Below are positions 1 through 7,591 of a stretch of 64,000 nt of DNA, piece after piece. Positions within the stretch are counted from its first letter, which is position 1; every line of letters begins with the position of its first letter. The position numbers and the translations under genes were made by a program. A model generated the notes under the pieces. That model was not told where the DNA came from. It saw only the letters and a list, made by a program, of their open reading frames with translations, and made no database searches. The DNA comes from a phage. The stretch is taken from assembly GCA_012646185.1 (NCBI GenBank), contig GCA_012646185.1_4706.1; one strand, written 5' to 3'.

Positions 1-3000
1 CCAGAACCAATTATAACAGAATAACTAGCAGCTGTTACCGTTATAACCGAAATTACTGTTCCGCCAGCTCCTCCCCCAGCGCCAAAAAACGTTTCGCTGT
101 TGGAATAAGCCTGACAGCCACCGCCGCCACCGCCGCCACCGGTTATCGTTACTCTAATCCGTTTTGTTCCTTGTGTTGGGGTGTACGTCCCTGACGATGT
201 GAAAACACGCATATTCAGTAAACGCCCGACATATCCGCTAGAATCGGCTAAACCAAGATCTTTAGCTGCTAACGTGATATTAGCTGTACCATCAAACGGT
301 TTACCGTTAATCGTGCGCGCGGTCTGCAACTTCGTCGCCGTTGCTGCGTTTCCTGATGTGTTCTGGTTTCCCGCGGCGTTAACACCTGGCAGATTGATGT
401 TCGCACTACCATCAAAAGAAACCCCACCAATGGTGCGGGCTGTTTGCAGTTTTGTCGCTGTGGCGGCATTCCCCGTGGTATTTTGGTTTCCTGCGGTGTT
501 AACACCCGGCAGACTGATATTAGCCGTACCATCGAACGCAACACCGCCGATCGTCCTTGCTGTTTGCAGTTTTGTCGCCGTGGCGGCATTACCGGTTGTG
601 CCTTGGTTACCGGTGGTGTTTACCCCAGGTAGGTTGATATTTGCCGTACCGTCAAATGAAACGCCGCCTATCGTTCTTGCCGTTTGCAACTTCGTTGCGG
701 ATGCCGCATTCCCTGTGGTGTTTTGGTTACCTGTTGTATTCACACCTGGGATACTATCCTTAGATGTGTAGATCTGTGCCCATTCCGACCATTTCGCATC
801 GGTTGTATCGCGACGTGAACGTAAATAAGCCGGAGCGTGTGCGCCAGAGGTACCTGACCAACCAACGAGGATTTCACCTTCACCTACCGATGAAGCACCT
901 TTGAGGTGAATAACGTTACCATAGGCGGTTGGGTAGCCGTTACTGTACGCTTCATACATCTGGATACCGGTATTACTACCTTGGGTCGCATTAGCTAACG
1001 CGGTAACACGACCTTTGGAGGCGAGAGCGGTAATACTGAAGCTAATGTCCTTAGTACCGTCAAAGGCGACCCCATTAATCTTCCGTGCTGTTTGGAGTTT
1101 CGTGGCGGTAGCCGCATTACCAGAGGTACTCTGATTACCTGCTTTGTTCACGCCAGGCAAATCAATGTTGGCTGTTCCATCAAAGGACACGCCTCCTATG
1201 GTTCTCGCTGTCTGAAGTTTTGTTGCTGAGCCAGCGTTTCCGGAAGTACCTTGATTACCTGCCGCGTTGACACCTGGTAGGTTAATGCTAGCAGAGCCAT
1301 CAAAAGAAACTCCGCCGATCGTGATCGGTGTTTTCAATTTCGTGGCTGTCGCGGCGTTACCCGTCGTGTTCTGGTTGCCTGTCGCATTAACGCCAGGTAA
1401 TGCGACATCCGCTGTTCCGTCAAAGGCAACGCCACCGATTCTACGTGCAGTTTGTAGTTTGGTTGCACTAGCAGCGTTACCGCTGGTATTCTGGGTGCCA
1501 GCTTTGTTAACACCGGGGAGATCGATGTTAGCAGAACCATCGAAGCTGACGCCACCTATCGTTCTTGCGGTAGCGAGTTTAGCTGCTGTGGCTGCATTAT
1601 TACCCACTTTCAGCCAATCATCCCATGGACCATCCTGGCCGTTCCATGATGCCGTTAAACTACGTACGTAAATATTGCCGGTACGTACAGTGTAACGTTG
1701 CGTTCCACCGAATTGTCCAGCAGGGAGCACTTCAAGGTAACCTGCGGCATTTGCTTCAGGGAAATTGTGGGCGACGTCCGCGTTCGTTGATACTGGTTTA
1801 GACCAAATACCCACAGACGCTTCAACCGGACCGTAGGTATTCAGATTTGCGTCGGTGGGGAGCTGTCCTCGAAAACGCTGGAATAGTGTTGCCGATAACC
1901 GCAACAATGCTTGCATGCTTTCAATGCTAGATTGCTGCAGTAACGTCCGTGCTGTCGGTGTGATCGTCGCTAAATCAACCTTATTCGTATCGGTAAAATA
2001 CGGGAATTTGTTTGCTGATGTTGCTAAACCTGAAAAGGCGGTCAGTAATGCGTTAAGGGGCTGCTTCCCAGCTAACGCATTTGTTACCGTCGTTGCGAAA
2101 TTAGGATCACTTCCTATAGCTCGAGCCAGTTTATTAAGTGTATTTAGCGTCGCTGGAGACGAGTCGATCAACGCCGTGATCGCACGCATCACGAATTCCG
2201 TGTTGGCAATCTGTCGACTGCTGTCGTTCACTACAGCCGTAGGCGCTGCTGGGATACCGGTGAACACAGGGCTATTAAGATCTGCCTTGAGCGCGATGAG
2301 ACGTTTAAGTGCGTCGACATCGACTTTCAGGTTTTCCCATCCGATGAGAGAACCACCGCTGCTGGCATGGTAACGGTTGTACCAGAAGTCACCGTTAACG
2401 CCTAAAAAGAATATTCCCTTCTCTTCGTTTTGCGGGCCGGAACTATTTCGTGACGAGCTGATGTAATTGATTTCAATAAGACCAGTAAACGTCACTCCTG
2501 GGATTATTTTGTTGTCTCCAGCTGACTGTGATACCTGGTAAATCCCCGGGGTTGCGGCTTTAACCCATGTTAAGAATTCTGTTACTCCAGCGGTACCGCT
2601 AAAATTCTTAACGTCGGTAAGTATTGCCCCATAACCGAACATACCGGGTAGAGCCACTCGTCCGCCGGTACGGTCACGAATATCTGTCGCAACAACAGGC
2701 AATTGTTTACGAACGGCATTAACCGCCTTAGGTGTGGCCGATTTTGTCTCGTCGTCGCTATCGGTTTCATTACTTAGAATAGTTAAACCGCGTGTAGCAG
2801 TAGTTGCATCAGGAAGAAATGCGTTATCCAACACCTTAAGCTGTACTGCACTCGTATTACTAACAACGACATGCACCTGACAGTTAAGAACGCTGGTTGC
2901 ACCTTCGGCAGGCGTAGGCTTATATCTTTCTGGCGCACTGCAGACGGCAATCAGAACATCTTGGTCATCGTACAGACCGATCTCACGTACCCAGAACCCA

Positions 3001-3254
3001 CCTTGACCAGCAGGAATAATACCCTCAACGATAATCCTGGTTGTGCTGTCACCATCCGCATGGATATTAGAAACTTCCCCACGATAAACTTCGTGAACAA
3101 GCGCTGTTTGGCTGGCGTTCGGGGTTGGGATCGAGCCGTTACCATCACCAACGGCAAAGTGTGTGATTTTTAGTTTCTCACCGTCGGGAAGTAACGCAGC
3201 GGTGATACGTTCTGCTCCTTTATCGGTAACTACCGTTATATATGCTGTACTCAT
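1..3254 (-). CDS. long tail fiber protein, partial (C-terminus runs off the window start): N-terminal domain, lambda Stf-like conserved region, two blocks of fiber repeats
   Basis: Manual minus-strand translation from ATG at 3254: MSTAYITVVTDKGAERITAALLPDGEKLKITHFAVGDGNGSIPTP. Region 2100-2340 reads DLNSPVFTGIPAAPTAVVNDSSRQIANTEFVMRAITALIDSSPATLNTLNKLARAIGSDPNFAT, closely resembling lambda Stf (DSPALTGTPTAPTA...QIANTAFV...DALNTLNELAAALGNDPDFAT). Repeats read GNAATATKLQTARTINGKPFDGTAN. Frame checked at several points but not end to end. Confidence 0.8.
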   Translation of the reverse strand, partial: MSTAYITVVTDKGAERITAALLPDGEKLKITHFAVGDGNGSIPTPNASQTALVHEVYRGEVSNIHADGDSTTRIIVEGIIPAGQGGFWVREIGLYDDQDVLIAVCSAPERYKPTPAEGATSVLNCQVHVVVSNTSAVQLKVLDNAFLPDATTATRGLTILSNETDSDDETKSATPKAVNAVRKQLPVVATDIRDRTGGRVALPGMFGYGAILTDVKNFSGTAGVTEFLTWVKAATPGIYQVSQSAGDNKIIPGVTFTGLIEINYISSSRNSSGPQNEEKGIFFLGVNGDFWYNRYHASSGGSLIGWENLKVDVDALKRLIALKADLNSPVFTGIPAAPTAVVNDSSRQIANTEFVMRAITALIDSSPATLNTLNKLARAIGSDPNFATTVTNALAGKQPLNALLTAFSGLATSANKFPYFTDTNKVDLATITPTARTLLQQSSIESMQALLRLSATLFQRFRGQLPTDANLNTYGPVEASVGIWSKPVSTNADVAHNFPEANAAGYLEVLPAGQFGGTQRYTVRTGNIYVRSLTASWNGQDGPWDDWLKVGNNAATAAKLATARTIGGVSFDGSANIDLPGVNKAGTQNTSGNAASATKLQTARRIGGVAFDGTADVALPGVNATGNQNTTGNAATATKLKTPITIGGVSFDGSASINLPGVNAAGNQGTSGNAGSATKLQTARTIGGVSFDGTANIDLPGVNKAGNQSTSGNAATATKLQTARKINGVAFDGTKDISFSITALASKGRVTALANATQGSNTGIQMYEAYSNGYPTAYGNVIHLKGASSVGEGEILVGWSGTSGAHAPAYLRSRRDTTDAKWSEWAQIYTSKDSIPGVNTTGNQNTTGNAASATKLQTARTIGGVSFDGTANINLPGVNTTGNQGTTGNAATATKLQTARTIGGVAFDGTANISLPGVNTAGNQNTTGNAATATKLQTARTIGGVSFDGSANINLPGVNAAGNQNTSGNAATATKLQTARTINGKPFDGTANITLAAKDLGLADSSGYVGRLLNMRVFTSSGTYTPTQGTKRIRVTITGGGGGGGGCQAYSNSETFFGAGGGAGGTVISVITVTAASYSVIIGS
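270..770 (-). repeat. tandem ~123-nt (41-aa) tail fiber repeats, distal block (Phage_fiber_2-like: ATKLQTARTIxGVxFDGxANIxLPGVN)
   Basis: Period visible on both strands; the antisense frame stays open, giving the artefactual plus ORF 181..771. Confidence 0.8.
1020..1615 (-). repeat. tandem ~123-nt tail fiber repeats, proximal block
   Basis: Same repeat unit as 270-770, separated from it by a ~250-nt non-repeat insert (780-1000). Confidence 0.8.
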
Positions 3255-3260
3255 GGTGTT

Positions 3261-3788
3261 TTATCCTGGATAAATAGTGATGATATCACCAATGACGGTT
3301 GTGGCACCGGCGTAAAGATGAGCCGGAGATACGTCGTGTTGGTTTGTCACAGTAAGATCCAATCGACCACGCCAAACCATGGAGGTATTCGCGATGGGGA
3401 TAGAAATCTTTTTGGATATATCGTCACGAAAATCAATAACAGTGGCGAGGGTAACCGCATCAAAATCAACGTCGGGGTCAAAGACGAACCCGTATTGATC
3501 TGAAATAGCCCGAATAATCGCATGTATAGTTGTTGTCTCAACGGACTCTAAAACGATTTTTACCGGTATTCCTAAAAATGCCTTCGCGATATCGCGTCGA
3601 GCGTAAACGATAAAACTTTCACCACACCACTTTGTTCCTTCATTTGCTGTGACGATCACTTTTGCCCTGTTAGCACCAGAACTCCCATCCAAGGTTAATG
3701 TAAGATCGGAGTTGCTGAACACGCTACCGTTACGTTGGTTTATCAACGTAATCAGTTCGTCTTTCCATGGCGGGTAAAGTGAACGCAT
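3261..3788 (-). CDS. hypothetical protein (175 aa); N-terminal module shared with products of 7605-8435 and 44535-45986
   Basis: ORF with GGAGGAGGG Shine-Dalgarno before ATG at 3788; shares WKDEL...YxRRDIAKxFxGIP...YGxVFD pattern with two other proteins; sits immediately upstream of the tail fiber. Confidence 0.65.
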   Translation of the reverse strand: MRSLYPPWKDELITLINQRNGSVFSNSDLTLTLDGSSGANRAKVIVTANEGTKWCGESFIVYARRDIAKAFLGIPVKIVLESVETTTIHAIIRAISDQYGFVFDPDVDFDAVTLATVIDFRDDISKKISIPIANTSMVWRGRLDLTVTNQHDVSPAHLYAGATTVIGDIITIYPG

Positions 3789-3994
3789 AAGCGCAACCCT
3801 CCTCCAATAATCAAATTAAAATGTAAAACGCCTCGAAACCGGAGTGCGATTCGAGGTAAGCGTAAACAGTCCAGACGACCACATAAAATTCCGCGCATAT
3901 TGCCCCTCTACCCCGACAAAGCGAGATAGAGGGAGGATAACACTTTGTGCTCTGTGGCACTTCAAAGTTCGTGGGGCGGTAACCGCCCCATCGG

Positions 3995-6900
3995 TTAAAT
4001 TGTTGGTTTTACATCGCGTAATAGGGCAATATAATAGCCTAATCCTCGGAGGATCTCTCCACTCCAGAAACCAAAATACATTCCGTCTCTGCCGAGATTA
4101 GCGCTATCTGGTGCAGGACTCCACCCACCATTCATTACGTCATCAACGGTGTAATGGTTGATGTAGTTCTCAACGATTTCGTTATACGCATTAACAGCAA
4201 CAGAATAACCTTTATCGTTGGGATGTCCGTACAACATTGCTAACGACGCACCCGCCAACCATAATCCTGCCATATGACCAGTAAAATCATTAGGGATAAA
4301 AGCGGGAGGTTTATCCATCGGAAAATCCGTAGGAGATTGATAAGCGTTTTCCTGTTGATACGTAAACAAGAAATCAATCCAATGGCTGATGTAAGTGGTT
4401 AACTTCTCAGGGACGGCTAAACCACGATCGAGCAGTCCAGCATAAAGCCGCACCGCTGAAAAGAAAGCCCTCGGCTGATAACCAGACCATGCCGTCTGAT
4501 CGCCGAAGTGGTACATTGTAAAATCATTAACTTTTGATCCGCTTGGCGCATCCCAACGATCCCACACGTACGCACTTGCCCCCGGCCCTAAAACCCCGAA
4601 TTTCTGATAATACCACTGCTGCGAGTCATACCAGAAATTCACAACATTCTGAATCATGAGGTCACGTCGTTCAGTCGATACGTCCATATCCAGGAAGACC
4701 CATGGATGTTGGTAGCCGGGATAAGGCTGACCACGCCAACTGTCGAACGTCGGTGCGTTAGGGATATAGTTGTTAGAGAACGGAATAATACCCGGAGTAT
4801 AAGGCAACGGATCGAGACGTTGGTTGACAATCGTACAATCGCCAACACGTAATGTTCCCTCCGCCTCAAAGGTTGCTTTTAACGTAAACAGCATGGTATA
4901 TCCGTCATCCGTGGTGTAAGTTGACGGTGGATTGTTGATGGCGTAAAGCTTAAATACCCCTTCAGCGATATCGCTGTCGTCAGGCAAGAACAGAATTTCA
5001 GTTGATCCATCCCCCCACACAGGTGCAGAAGGTTTAGGGTCAGTATCAGCGTGGCCCGGTTGATACCCTGAGAGCCTCCATCCGTTCGCCGAAAGCGTCA
5101 ATGTATTTCTTGCTGTGGTGGCCGGTAGCATATACCACCATCGCCAACCATTTGCATCTTCTACACGAACGTTGTAGTCAATCGACGCGAAATAACTGAC
5201 CTGTCTTACGATCTGTTTTGCGGTTGGATTGAATTCAAATTGCCCGCCTGCCGCAGTAAGCTGCGCTTTTAAGAACAACCCATCCCAGGAATCTTCCGCT
5301 GCTTCGCTGAATTCGGTTGTGATGGCGACATCATCTTTCCAGCCGACTTTATCAGCCGATATCAACACAGAACCTGTAACAGCATCACCGGTTGGTGTTG
5401 AAGCTTCATCAACCGCATCAGCAGGAATCAACGAGCCTATTTTGAAATCCCATCCTTTCGGTTCAGCGCTGGAAGGTAATACCAGCTTGTACGTTTTGGC
5501 GTTCGCTTCGGTTTTGTCCAAAGAAAGCGATAATGAGATCTCAACCGGAATTGCAACACCCGCTGCATCTTTACCGCCGCAGGTTACACGAAGAATTGAA
5601 TCACGATTGACGCGGAACGGAATAGCCTGCTGTTCAAGGTAAATTTGTGCTGAAGATGCTTGAATCACAATCCAACCATCGGTATCACGCGTGATTGTGA
5701 ACGGTGCTTTCGATGGGTATGTATACGTGTAAGCGATACCGTCGGTGTCGTAACGATCGGTTCCTTTTACTTGACGGAAGAACTTATCGTTGGCGTCGAT
5801 ACGGGTATATTCTTCAATCGTAAACAAAGATGCCTTGTACGCTTTCTGATAACGCTCCTGCTGCGTTAAACGATATAAGGTGTAGGCTGCTTCACAAAAC
5901 CACTGTTCAGCGTCTGACGCGTTTCCCATGTAGTCTCTGGTGACCGGTACCTGGATCGGTCGGTTATGCTGACACTCGTTCGTTTTGATAAGGTATCCGC
6001 CATATTCAACAGGAACGCGGGGTGCCCACGCAACCAAATAAGAACCGTTGACGGATTTATCTTTGAGTACGATGGTACCTACTTCATCGTCAGTACACGC
6101 TTCAAGATCGTCCCCGTCAGCACTTACGTAACGTTTTGTGCGTAACGCAACTTTCTCGATAGGGAACACCGTACCCTTTGTATCCCAGTCAATCGTCCCA
6201 TCATCATTGGTTTTGAACACATCGGCGTTCAAATTCTGCCAGCCGAGTTTACCTTCATAGACCTGAACAACAAGATCCATGTATTCCCCGAACGTTGGTG
6301 TACCGTGTGTTATTTTCCCGATACCGTTGGTGAATGTAACCGCTGTGTCATGGAAACCCCCGTGTGTTGGGTAATCGTCTTTTGCAAGAGGATAATGGGC
6401 CAACACCGGTTGCTTACCATTAACGATCCAGTTAGCGATCCAGCGTGTCGGTGTATCCGGTGGTTCAAGGCCTGCGTAGAACGCTTTTATATACGCATCG
6501 AACGATGCCTCTGCTAATGTGAGATAATGCGCTTTAAGCTTGGTATCATCCGTTGTATGGCTGAATATACCCGCACCCAGAATTAACAACGACTGTCCTT
6601 CTGTTGTTGCGTCACCATCCGGTTGTGCTTCCTGTCGTGTTGCTGCAATGAAATGACGGTTGTTTACCATGACCCCGCTTTCATTTAACACGTAATGATC
6701 GGTTTCTGGGTCGGTAAACGTTCCTGTGTTTCGGGTTAAGAATCTTGCATGACCATAACCAACGAAATTAACCGGCGACGCTGTAATCATCCATTTACCG
6801 ATAAGTTGAGCAACATCATTATAACGCTCGGATGCGGTGATTTGTTTCACGTACCAGTCTTTATGGTTAAATGTCCAAAGCAGGAAGTAATAAGTTGTAT

Positions 6901-7591
6901 CGATTTCCATCACTGGGAACGTCGGCGTTAACGGCTCCAGCGTTAAGTAGTTGCTCCAGTCAATCTGTCCGCCAACCACCGATGGGGTAATCTCTAATAA
7001 CTGACACCACTCATAACGGTCCGGTACACTACTGGACGTTGTTGGTAAAGGTAACTTGTATACGCCAGTACGATTCAGATCGAACGCTTTTCTAGCCGAT
7101 CCTAAATCAACATAAATACTCGATGATGCGTTTGCACTATATGCCTCCAAAGCACCTAGCGTTGACCGATACATTGAGATGAACAACGTATCTTTCCAGT
7201 AAGGGTTATCCTTGGTTGGTTCTAAAGCGATTTGTGCAAAAATGCTGTTCTGCGCCCCTAACTGGTATGTTGCATTTAAAGATTCTTCTGTGAAATAACT
7301 TTCTGCAATCGTCAGATGGAACTGCTCGTTCAATAATGCGAGTGCGGCGCGTCCAGTAACATCCTCATTACCGGTTTCTTTTTTCATGATCGCGCCGAAC
7401 GGAAACAATGTCGCGAATGACCGTTTTGGTTTATTAACCGTAACCGTCCCCGTGTATTTTCCAACACCATCAAGTTTTTGACTATCGCCAACAGCAGTGA
7501 CTGCGATACCATCAGCCGGGATATTTGTTTTATTTAGTACATTGAGTTGGTCAACCAGATCCTGCTTATCGTCAGGTAAGAATGTCGCCAT
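3995..7591 (-). CDS. large hypothetical protein (1198 aa), probably virion or tail associated
   Basis: Very long uninterrupted ORF co-oriented with tail fiber genes; no motif recognised by eye. Confidence 0.7.
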   Translation of the reverse strand: MATFLPDDKQDLVDQLNVLNKTNIPADGIAVTAVGDSQKLDGVGKYTGTVTVNKPKRSFATLFPFGAIMKKETGNEDVTGRAALALLNEQFHLTIAESYFTEESLNATYQLGAQNSIFAQIALEPTKDNPYWKDTLFISMYRSTLGALEAYSANASSSIYVDLGSARKAFDLNRTGVYKLPLPTTSSSVPDRYEWCQLLEITPSVVGGQIDWSNYLTLEPLTPTFPVMEIDTTYYFLLWTFNHKDWYVKQITASERYNDVAQLIGKWMITASPVNFVGYGHARFLTRNTGTFTDPETDHYVLNESGVMVNNRHFIAATRQEAQPDGDATTEGQSLLILGAGIFSHTTDDTKLKAHYLTLAEASFDAYIKAFYAGLEPPDTPTRWIANWIVNGKQPVLAHYPLAKDDYPTHGGFHDTAVTFTNGIGKITHGTPTFGEYMDLVVQVYEGKLGWQNLNADVFKTNDDGTIDWDTKGTVFPIEKVALRTKRYVSADGDDLEACTDDEVGTIVLKDKSVNGSYLVAWAPRVPVEYGGYLIKTNECQHNRPIQVPVTRDYMGNASDAEQWFCEAAYTLYRLTQQERYQKAYKASLFTIEEYTRIDANDKFFRQVKGTDRYDTDGIAYTYTYPSKAPFTITRDTDGWIVIQASSAQIYLEQQAIPFRVNRDSILRVTCGGKDAAGVAIPVEISLSLSLDKTEANAKTYKLVLPSSAEPKGWDFKIGSLIPADAVDEASTPTGDAVTGSVLISADKVGWKDDVAITTEFSEAAEDSWDGLFLKAQLTAAGGQFEFNPTAKQIVRQVSYFASIDYNVRVEDANGWRWWYMLPATTARNTLTLSANGWRLSGYQPGHADTDPKPSAPVWGDGSTEILFLPDDSDIAEGVFKLYAINNPPSTYTTDDGYTMLFTLKATFEAEGTLRVGDCTIVNQRLDPLPYTPGIIPFSNNYIPNAPTFDSWRGQPYPGYQHPWVFLDMDVSTERRDLMIQNVVNFWYDSQQWYYQKFGVLGPGASAYVWDRWDAPSGSKVNDFTMYHFGDQTAWSGYQPRAFFSAVRLYAGLLDRGLAVPEKLTTYISHWIDFLFTYQQENAYQSPTDFPMDKPPAFIPNDFTGHMAGLWLAGASLAMLYGHPNDKGYSVAVNAYNEIVENYINHYTVDDVMNGGWSPAPDSANLGRDGMYFGFWSGEILRGLGYYIALLRDVKPTI

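What the first reader, a model, noticed from the sequence alone, without database searches (positions are those of the whole stretch)
1..3254. Long tail fiber with two repeat blocks split by a non-repeat insert
The minus-strand fiber ORF has a lambda Stf-like conserved region near 2100-2340, then two blocks of ~41-aa repeats (1020-1615 and 270-770) separated by a ~75-aa non-repeat segment (780-1000). It continues beyond the window edge. The repeat DNA keeps the antisense frame open, which produced several artefactual ORFs in the track. Repeat-number variation here would be a simple route to fiber length or host-range change.
Basis: seen in the sequence. Interest (0 to 1): 0.5.

Follow-up and report, generated by a model that had tools for sequence, protein, structure and literature searches.

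The report
Goslar-type jumbo-phage tail fibre repeats
This is the tail-fibre gene of a jumbo phage closely related to E. coli phage Goslar, cut off by the end of the assembly; its shaft is built from 40-residue units whose number really does differ between otherwise nearly identical phages, but the gene is an ordinary member of a known family.

Summary
The minus strand of 1-3254 is one open frame of 1084 codons with no stop, and it runs off the window. It is the ortholog of Goslar gp90 ("tail fiber repeat protein"), a protein detected in virions. Corrections: the repeat period is 40 aa (120 nt), not 41. Block 1 has 5 units (1041-1601) and block 2 has 4 (270-755). The insert is about 95 aa (756-1040), not 75. 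The insert is a beta-rich knob; its model most resembles the domains that interrupt the T4 gp34 shaft and the R-pyocin fibre knobs. P1 gpS has the same unit-knob-unit plan with one unit on each side. A 1212-aa ortholog that aligns without gaps implies 128 missing codons, a glycine-rich tip. Among 120 ortholog cluster representatives, block 1 has 3-8 units and block 2 has 1, 3 or 4, always in register. One pair of genes differs by three substitutions and a clean 240-bp indel with an 8-nt junction. Units within a gene are only 59-79% identical in DNA, so this is not a slippage-type hypervariable locus. The antisense ORFs are by-products of composition. Verdict: real, well explained, a new member of a known kind, of modest interest.

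The parts
1..3254 (-). Tail-fibre gene, ortholog of Goslar gp90. It holds the first 1084 of an inferred 1212 codons; the 3' end lies beyond window position 1.
   Evidence: No stop in 1084 codons. Ungapped 95.7% nt identity to the 1212-aa gene L004:5001-8639. 100% identical to the partial 1085-aa protein P0006, from a 236,379-bp E. coli contig.
2832..3254 (-). N-terminal tail-collar fibre domain (aa 1-141), the presumed baseplate-attachment end.
   Evidence: PF12571, E 6.3e-41.
2709..2804 (-). One Phage_fiber_2 repeat (aa 151-182). Assigning it to the mixed alpha/beta fibrous unit of T4 gp34/gp12 is my inference from the shared conserved Ser/Thr-Pro ('ATP' here); it was not tested.
   Evidence: PF03406, E 2.9e-8. 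51% identity to lambda orf-401 aa 353-387. Description of the gp34 repeat in PMC5537660.
2319..2669 (-). Non-repeat region (aa 196-312), called 'knob 1' here. It is probably globular but is uncharacterised.
   Evidence: No Pfam hit at E<=10. No detectable profile similarity to knobs 2 or 3.
1914..2279 (-). Conserved region of lambda Stf / P1 S type (aligned stretch aa 326-447).
   Evidence: 54% identity over 122 aa to the lambda stf junction region, E 8e-45. PDB 9d93 'tail collar fibers gp4' matches Goslar gp90 residues 355-415, the same conserved region.
1602..1883 (-). Knob 2 (aa 458-551), a non-repeat domain ending in W..W, directly before block 1.
   Evidence: Sequence. A relative, P0115, carries four such domains in tandem. 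No Pfam hit.
1041..1601 (-). Repeat block 1: five 40-aa units (aa 552-738). The last unit is cut short where the knob begins.
   Evidence: Unit order matches units 1-2-6-7-8 of an 8-unit relative.
756..1040 (-). Knob 3 (aa 739-833), the 'non-repeat insert'. It is a predicted six-strand beta domain.
270..755 (-). Repeat block 2: a lead-in plus four 40-aa units (aa 834-995). The last unit is the joint to the tip module.
   Evidence: TRF period 120, 3.8 copies.. All tip types diverge right after '...FDG..NITL'.
1..269 (-). Start of the glycine-rich C-terminal tip domain (aa 996-1084), truncated by the window and contig end.
   Evidence: The Goslar ortholog has PF21722 Gly_rich_2 at residues 1132-1321, E 1e-11. 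Complete orthologs end ...ICIIEEFM.
181..771 (+). Antisense ORF of 196 aa over block 2. Judged non-coding.
1267..1671 (+). Antisense ORF of 134 aa over block 1. Judged non-coding.

Best explanation
The gene encodes the baseplate tail fibre of a Goslar-like, nucleus-forming jumbo phage. It is truncated only because a circularly permuted genome was written out as a linear contig that starts inside the gene.

The protein is modular:
- an N-terminal tail-collar attachment domain and one Phage_fiber_2 unit;
- an uncharacterised region;
- the Stf/S-type conserved segment;
- knob 2, then five 40-aa shaft units, then knob 3, then four 40-aa shaft units;
- a glycine-rich receptor-binding tip. In complete orthologs the tip is followed by a Caudo_TAP chaperone gene.

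The unit-knob-unit plan is that of P1 gpS, with the units multiplied on both sides.

Inferred: the units build a thin trimeric beta-structured shaft and the knobs are beta-prism-like bulges on it, as in T4 gp34. Each unit would then add very roughly 2 nm.

Shown: in natural relatives the number of units changes by in-register deletions between non-adjacent diverged units. These use very short microhomology and leave chimeric units. Also shown: the last unit is the joint at which different tip modules are attached.

Inferred: unit number tunes the reach of the fibre, while the tip module sets receptor specificity.
For: Identity of the gene:
- The rest of the window is 95.4% identical to Goslar at full coverage. 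The gene matches Goslar_00090 with the same neighbours.
- Pfam PF12571 and PF03406; tail-fibre PHROGs.
- gp90 is found in virions.

Truncation:
- P0006 is identical, partial, and on a 236,379-bp contig.
- The Goslar genome is circularly permuted (PMC6563267).
- The gene is collinear with a 1212-aa ortholog.

Architecture. P1 S reads unit-knob-unit-tip. Acj9 gp37 also has a unit on each side of the knob.

Shaft: weak profile match to the phage L Dec C-terminus, E 0.0026. [quoted passage not shown]

Copy number:
- Block 1 has 3-8 units and block 2 has 1, 3 or 4, always in 40-aa register, in 120 representatives.
- P0008 vs P0025 differ by 1 aa plus an 80-aa indel. P0002 vs P0042 differ by 4 aa plus a 120-aa indel.
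- Junction units are chimeric.
- In DNA there are 3 substitutions plus one 240-bp indel, with an 8-nt junction GATGGTTC.
- More than a dozen distinct unit orders exist, and nearly all keep the first and last unit.

Tips: Gly_rich_2 followed by a TAP gene; S74 (two C-terminal sequence variants) and a short tip without a TAP gene; a lambda-Stf Collar tip. All are joined at the last unit.
Against: - No experiment links unit number to fibre length, adsorption or host range.
- The tail fibres were not resolved in the Goslar cryo-EM map, so where gp90 sits on the baseplate is unproven.
- The 40-aa unit has no solved structure and no Pfam model. The beta-helix reading rests on one weak match.
- The tip and chaperone are not in the window.
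- Deletion rather than insertion is the direction inferred by parsimony.
Confidence: 0.85

Rival explanations
1. The differences in unit number among relatives are assembly artefacts: repeats collapsed or mis-joined in short-read assemblies.
For: Most orthologs come from short-read draft or metagenome assemblies. The window's own contig breaks inside this gene.
Against: Units share at most 20 nt of exact identity within the window gene, and the indel junction examined has only 8 nt. That is too short for k-mer collapse. All variants stay in frame and in register. The same variants recur on several contigs and in several samples. Finished Goslar itself carries 7+4 units.
Confidence: 0.05
2. The locus is a contingency locus. 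Near-identical tandem DNA repeats slip at high frequency within a lysate and switch fibre length back and forth.
For: Alleles that are otherwise almost identical differ in unit number.
Against: Units in one gene are 59-79% identical in DNA (block 1: 59-68%) and the longest exact repeat is 20 nt. The event examined in DNA and the protein-level junctions look like deletions that create chimeric units. Such deletions are not reversible by slippage. The repeats look old and are kept at the protein level.
Confidence: 0.08
3. The units matter mainly as conserved joints for recombination, so that tips or distal halves can be swapped between phages. Unit number would then be a neutral by-product with no effect on infection.
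For: All tip types diverge exactly after the last unit. The fibre cassette is nearly identical between phages whose flanking genes differ by 2-8%. The same unit occurs in at least 11,785 representative proteins, including P1, SSU5, 9g and T4-like fibres.
Against: This does not explain why multi-unit arrays are kept on both sides of the knob in all but two of the 120 representatives, or why the first and last unit are almost always retained. No DNA of 85% identity or more is shared with other known phages or with complete E. coli genomes, so there is no sign of recent exchange outside the group. This rival is compatible with the main explanation rather than exclusive of it.
Confidence: 0.3
4. 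The protein is not the baseplate tail fibre. It belongs to another fibrous system of the virion, such as the collar filaments or the proposed DUF7941 fibre cloud.
For: The fibres were not assigned in the Goslar map. The gene immediately upstream encodes a DUF7941 protein.
Against: The N-terminal PF12571 domain is the tail-collar fibre N-terminal domain, and the shaft and tip modules are shared with P1 S and lambda Stf. The collar filaments were assigned to gp126. The protein itself has no DUF7941 domain.
Confidence: 0.07
5. The long plus-strand ORFs over the repeats (181-771, 1267-1671) are real overlapping genes.
For: 196 and 134 codons are open, with 0 stops in 163 codons over block 2.
Against: No PHROG hit. 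All three of the longest antisense ORFs lie in the one antisense phase that is stop-poor across the whole gene (23 stops against 39 and 78). Shuffling the sense codons gives open stretches of 149 +/- 36 codons, against 218 observed.
Confidence: 0.02

Closest known systems
Escherichia phage vB_EcoM_Goslar gp90 (Goslar_00090, QBO63883.1, 'tail fiber repeat protein', 1324 aa)
   Same: Ortholog with the same neighbours. The same domain order from the N-terminus to the glycine-rich tip. Orthologous units are 86-95% identical in DNA.
   Different: Goslar has 7+4 units against 5+4 here. It also has 32 extra residues after the Stf-like region. DNA identity in this gene is lower than in the rest of the window: 89.8% over 61% of the gene, against 95.4%.
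Phage P1 tail fibre gpS (also P7, D6)
   Same: The Stf-type conserved region, then a 40-aa unit, then a knob 69-72% identical to knob 3, then a unit, then the tip, with a chaperone gene downstream.
   Different: P1 has one unit on each side of the knob instead of 5 and 4. Its N-terminus is different. Its tip is switched by Cin-mediated inversion at cix, upstream of the first unit. No invertible segment is seen in the Goslar-like loci.
Lambda side tail fibre Stf
   Same: 54% identity over the conserved segment and a shared PF03406 unit. One Goslar-like relative, P0092, even carries a lambda-type Collar tip ending ...NIAFNYIVRLA.
   Different: No match to the 40-aa units or knob 3 was found in lambda's annotated orf-401 and orf-314. 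Different N-terminus and virion context: side fibre of a siphovirus.
T4 proximal long tail fibre gp34 (PDB 4UXE, 4UXG, 5NXH)
   Different: No detectable sequence similarity to the units or the knob. Identity in the structural alignment is about 11%.
R-type pyocin fibre (PA0620; PDB 6CL5, 6CL6, 6CU2)
   Different: Resemblance of fold only. It is not known to me to contain 40-aa unit arrays; this was not tested here.

Membership tests
Tail-collar fibre proteins (Pfam PF12571 N-terminal domain) | N-terminal PF12571 domain above the gathering score | tested here: met
   140.3 bits against a cut-off of 23, E 6.3e-41, residues 1-141
Tail-collar fibre proteins (Pfam PF12571 N-terminal domain) | Phage_fiber_2 (PF03406) unit after the N-terminal domain | tested here: met
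   33.6 bits against a cut-off of 22, residues 151-182
Tail-collar fibre proteins (Pfam PF12571 N-terminal domain) | C-terminal receptor-binding module with a dedicated assembly chaperone gene downstream | not testable with these tools
   The 3' end and downstream gene lie outside the window. In the ungapped 95.7%-identical ortholog L004 the tip is PF21722 and the next gene is PF02413 Caudo_TAP.
Tail-collar fibre proteins (Pfam PF12571 N-terminal domain) | Homotrimeric fibre attached to the baseplate of the virion | not testable with these tools
   The ortholog gp90 was detected in virions by mass spectrometry, but the fibres were not resolved (bioRxiv 10.64898/2026.04.21.720040).
Goslar gp90 orthologous group | Full-length collinear similarity and conserved neighbours (175-aa DUF7941 gene and 1198-aa tail protein upstream) | tested here: met
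Stf / gpS conserved-segment fibres (lambda Stf, P1 S, Mu S) | Conserved segment '...SP.(L/F)TG.P.APTA...QIANT.FV...LNTLNELA.A(L/I)G.DP.FATT..NALAGKQP...' | tested here: met
   54% identity over 122 aa to lambda, E 8e-45. The same segment is present in P1 S.
Invertible-segment host-range switches (P1 Cin/cix, Mu Gin/gix) | Alternative tip and chaperone genes in inverted orientation, flanked by crossover sites, with a nearby invertase | tested here: not met
   In complete orthologous loci the genes downstream of the fibre are all on the same strand: TAP, then a conserved 168-aa gene. There is no second tip and no recombinase domain. The window itself ends before this region.
Slipped-strand contingency loci | Tandem DNA units that are identical or nearly so | tested here: not met
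   Units are 59-79% identical in DNA and the longest exact repeat is 20 nt.
Slipped-strand contingency loci | Unit number differs between otherwise near-identical alleles | tested here: met
   Three substitutions plus a 240-bp indel over a 3.5-kb gene. Several protein pairs show the same.
T4 gp34-type shaft (triple beta-helix interrupted by beta-prism domains) | Insert domain with the fold of the gp34 P domains | tested here: inconclusive
T4 gp34-type shaft (triple beta-helix interrupted by beta-prism domains) | Repeat units form a trimeric beta-helix | not testable with these tools
   The only support is a weak profile match to the Dec C-terminus (E 0.0026), itself only modelled as a beta-helix. 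No trimer prediction was available.

The most novel reading that the evidence does not exclude
The 40-aa unit would be a very widespread shaft module of phage fibres: at least 11,785 representative proteins and up to 15 units per protein, with no Pfam model hit and no solved structure found here. In Goslar-like jumbo phages its arrays would act as a natural length dial. An ancestral array of eight units, 1-(2-3-4)-(5-6-7)-8, is repeatedly trimmed by in-register microhomology deletions. Selection would act on the resulting reach of the fibre, for example to match the depth of O-antigen or capsule, independently of the tip, which is exchanged at the last unit.
Probability: 0.3. Interest if true: 0.5.

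Novelty: new member of a known kind. Interest (0 to 1): 0.3.

Why it matters
Goslar is the E. coli model for nucleus-forming jumbo phages. Its tail fibres are the one part of the virion that the 2026 cryo-EM study could not resolve. This work adds several things:
- a domain map of the fibre;
- a catalogue of natural length variants (3-8 and 1-4 units);
- two variants that lack the middle knob altogether;
- four main alternative tip types.

Together these give ready-made designs for testing which parts set host range and reach. The work also flags a very common fibre-shaft repeat that still lacks a curated family and a structure. None of this changes the general picture of how tail fibres evolve.

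Tried and rejected
- Profile-profile comparison of the three non-repeat domains (knobs 1-3) found no significant similarity (probabilities 0.5-3.7%). I do not claim they are homologous.
- The first AF2 model of knob 3, built on 12 close sequences, was unusable (pLDDT 47). A second model with more diverse rows reached 76.9.
- Sequence searches of the PDB with knob 3, alone or as a profile, found nothing meaningful. The whole Goslar protein matched only 9d93, over the Stf-like segment.
- NCBIfam gave no family for the window protein and only a far sub-threshold match for the Goslar ortholog.
- A word-indexed search with knob 3 alone returned only 10 fragments.
- The exact source contig of P0006 is not on record, so the other end of the contig could not be read.
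- Megablast of the gene found nothing in 5,426 complete E. coli genomes and only Goslar among phage records.
- A literature search for fibre repeat number and length found nothing specific. A search for a structure of the P1 fibre also found nothing.
- I considered a Cin/Gin-type inversion switch and a slippage-type contingency locus and rejected both (see the membership tests).
Full report
**1. The observation**

The reverse strand of window 1-3254 translates into 1084 codons without a stop. The frame starts at the ATG at 3254. An AGGA lies upstream, and the TAA of the upstream gene lies six bases before the ATG. The frame runs off the window.

The repeats are real, but their period is 120 nt / 40 aa, not about 41.
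- TRF reports 275-733, period 120, 3.8 copies, score 400.
- In register, units start at aa 552, 592, 632, 672 and 712 (block 1, window 1041-1601).
- Further units start at aa 848, 888, 928 and 968, after a partial lead-in (block 2, window 270-755).
- In an alignment of 11 units, 21 of 40 columns are invariant.

The segment between the blocks is aa 739-833 (window 756-1040). That is about 95 residues rather than 75.

The lambda Stf-like region is confirmed. Window aa 326-447 is 54% identical to the lambda stf junction region, E 8e-45.

**2. What genome and what gene**

The rest of the window (3255-28000) is 95.4% identical to Escherichia phage vB_EcoM_Goslar at full coverage. Goslar is a 237-kb chimallivirus.

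The ORF is the ortholog of Goslar_00090, 'tail fiber repeat protein', 1324 aa. The upstream neighbours are the same: a 175-aa DUF7941 gene and a 1198-aa tail protein.
- Pfam finds the tail-collar fibre N-terminal domain PF12571 (E 6e-41) and one PF03406 unit.
- The best PHROG matches are tail-fibre families.
- A 2026 preprint detected gp90 in purified Goslar virions by mass spectrometry but could not resolve the tail fibres (bioRxiv 10.64898/2026.04.21.720040).

**3. The missing end**

A partial 1085-aa E. coli protein, P0006, is 100% identical to the window's product and lies on a 236,379-bp contig. The 3254 bases give 1084 codons plus GG, which still reads as Gly. Window position 1 is therefore almost certainly the contig end.

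Goslar's genome is circularly permuted (PMC6563267). The break is an arbitrary linearisation point, not biology.

The gene is collinear, without a gap and 95.7% identical in DNA, with a 1212-aa gene on a contig of a Salmonella enterica assembly (L004). So 128 codons are missing. They encode the rest of a glycine-rich tip (PF21722 in Goslar). In L004 the next gene is a Caudo_TAP chaperone.

**4. The insert**

Knob 3 is 69-72% identical to a segment of P1, P7 and D6 gpS. It is about 56-75% identical to lambdoid side fibres, about 50% to a group of Vibrio phages, and 30-42% to Acinetobacter T4-like gp37.

It has no Pfam family and no sequence match in the PDB.

An AF2 model built on a more diverse alignment reached pLDDT 76.9 and pTM 0.67, with six strands.
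- The Foldseek ranking is also led by phage proteins: an Acinetobacter phage tailspike first, then gp34 entries at probability 0.99-1.0 with weak E-values near 0.01.

The gp34 shaft is described as a triple beta-helix interrupted by beta-prism domains (PMC5537660). I read knob 3 as such a bulge. This is an inference from a moderate match of fold.

P1 gpS reads '...unit - knob - unit - tip', and Acj9 gp37 also has a unit on each side of the knob. The 'two blocks split by an insert' is therefore the P1-type plan with the units multiplied on both sides.

**5. The unit**

No Pfam model hits the units, even at E<=10. Precomputed Pfam lists for the orthologs agree.

A profile of the unit finds only the C-terminus of the phage L decoration protein in the PDB (E 0.0026). 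[quoted passage not shown]

Against 1.84 billion representative proteins the profile finds 11,785 at E<=0.001 and 4,436 at E<=1e-10, with up to 15 units in one protein. The unit is therefore common but uncurated.

A rise of roughly 2 nm per unit is a rough guess from gp34 dimensions: 18 nm per about 370 residues.

**6. Does unit number vary?**

Yes. Among the 120 best ortholog cluster representatives, most lie on contigs of 234-249 kb from E. coli, Salmonella and Shigella assemblies and from metagenomes.
- Block 1 has 3, 4, 5, 6, 7 or 8 units, most often 5.
- Block 2 has 1, 3 or 4 units, most often 3.
- All are in 40-aa register. The window has 5+4.

Pairs that are otherwise almost identical differ only by clean indels.
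- P0008 vs P0025: one substitution and 80 aa.
- P0002 vs P0042: four substitutions and 120 aa.
- P0075 vs P0087: 40 aa in block 2.

The unit at the junction is a chimera of two parental units.

In DNA, L010 and L011 differ over the 3.5-kb gene by three substitutions and one 240-bp indel. The junction shares only 8 nt, GATGGTTC. The flanking genes differ by 2-8%.

Mapping units onto an 8-unit relative shows a higher-order pattern, 1-(2-3-4)-(5-6-7)-8. There are more than a dozen different derived orders, and nearly all keep units 1 and 8. The window is 1-2-6-7-8.

Within the window's gene the units are only 59-79% identical in DNA and the longest exact repeat is 20 nt. This argues against assembler collapse and against slippage-type hypervariability.

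Two relatives (P0093, P0114) lack knob 3 altogether: block 1 is fused to block 2. Another (P0115) has four knob-2-like domains in tandem.

**7. Tips**

Relatives carry four main kinds of tip:
- a Gly_rich_2 tip followed by a TAP gene;
- a Peptidase_S74 tip (self-chaperoning), in two C-terminal sequence variants, with no TAP gene;
- a short tip ending FAG..N(E/Q)GY, with no TAP gene;
- a lambda-Stf Collar tip.

All diverge immediately after the last unit, '...FDG..NITL'. The last unit is thus the joint for tip exchange, which is the more likely route to a change of host range.

**8. Antisense ORFs**

Plus-strand ORFs 181-771, 1267-1671 and 1855-2373 all lie in the one antisense phase that is poor in stops across the whole gene (23 stops against 39 and 78).
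- Over block 2 that phase has 0 stops in 163 codons.
- Shuffling the sense codons gives longest open stretches of 149 +/- 36 codons, against 218 observed. 4.8% of shuffles reach the observed value.
- None of the three has a PHROG hit.

They are by-products of composition.

**9. Verdict**

The gene is a new allele of a known, annotated tail fibre, built from modules shared with P1, lambda and T4-like fibres. What unit number does to the fibre and to infection remains untested.

Noticed in passing
window 3261-3788 (-): The gene immediately upstream encodes a 175-aa DUF7941 protein, the ortholog of Goslar gp91. Its stop codon ends 6 nt before the fibre's ATG. A 2026 preprint proposes that DUF7941 proteins form head-to-tail filaments, a 'fibre cloud', around the baseplate. 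The tight coupling to the fibre gene might mean it is an adaptor. This was not tested.
   Followed up: partly
L006:1557-3308 and L008:1556-3310, against window 3789-3994: Some Goslar-like relatives carry an extra gene of about 583 aa (DUF7941 + DUF285) between the 1198-aa tail protein gene and the 175-aa DUF7941 gene. The window and Goslar have only a gap of about 200 nt there.
   Followed up: no
window about 1880-1915 (aa 448-458): Goslar has 32 extra residues here. Relatives fall into several length classes at this spot (first unit at aa 547-597). It coincides with the point where lambda homology ends and where P1 has its cix crossover ('VIQY|LGLRE'). This is an old module boundary shared across phage families.
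   Followed up: partly
proteins P0006, P0008, P0016, P0034 and others; Near-complete Goslar-like genomes (234-249 kb contigs) turn up in draft assemblies labelled E. coli, Salmonella enterica and Shigella flexneri. One example is a 98%-identical fibre in a Salmonella assembly. No match exists in 5,426 complete E. coli genomes. This suggests carry-over or a carrier state in cultures rather than integration.
   Followed up: no
L010 vs L011: The fibre gene and about 2 kb downstream are almost identical between two phages whose neighbouring genes differ by 2-8%. The fibre cassette seems to have moved recently between Goslar-like lineages.
   Followed up: partly
window 270-1883 against the rest of the window: The distal shaft (knob 2 to block 2) has 50-52% G+C, against 45.7% for the rest of the window. 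Part of this reflects Gly/Ala/Thr-rich composition. It may also reflect a foreign origin of these modules.
   Followed up: no
L005:1148-1768 (lambda orf206b): Lambda's reference annotation also carries a 'hypothetical protein' ORF antisense to its stf gene (orf-401). It is probably the same kind of artefact as the antisense ORFs here.
   Followed up: no
window 3995-7591 (-): A 1198-aa protein with no Pfam domain but a very strong match to PHROG 2871, 'tail protein' (E 6e-297). It is conserved next to the fibre gene in all related loci examined.
   Followed up: no
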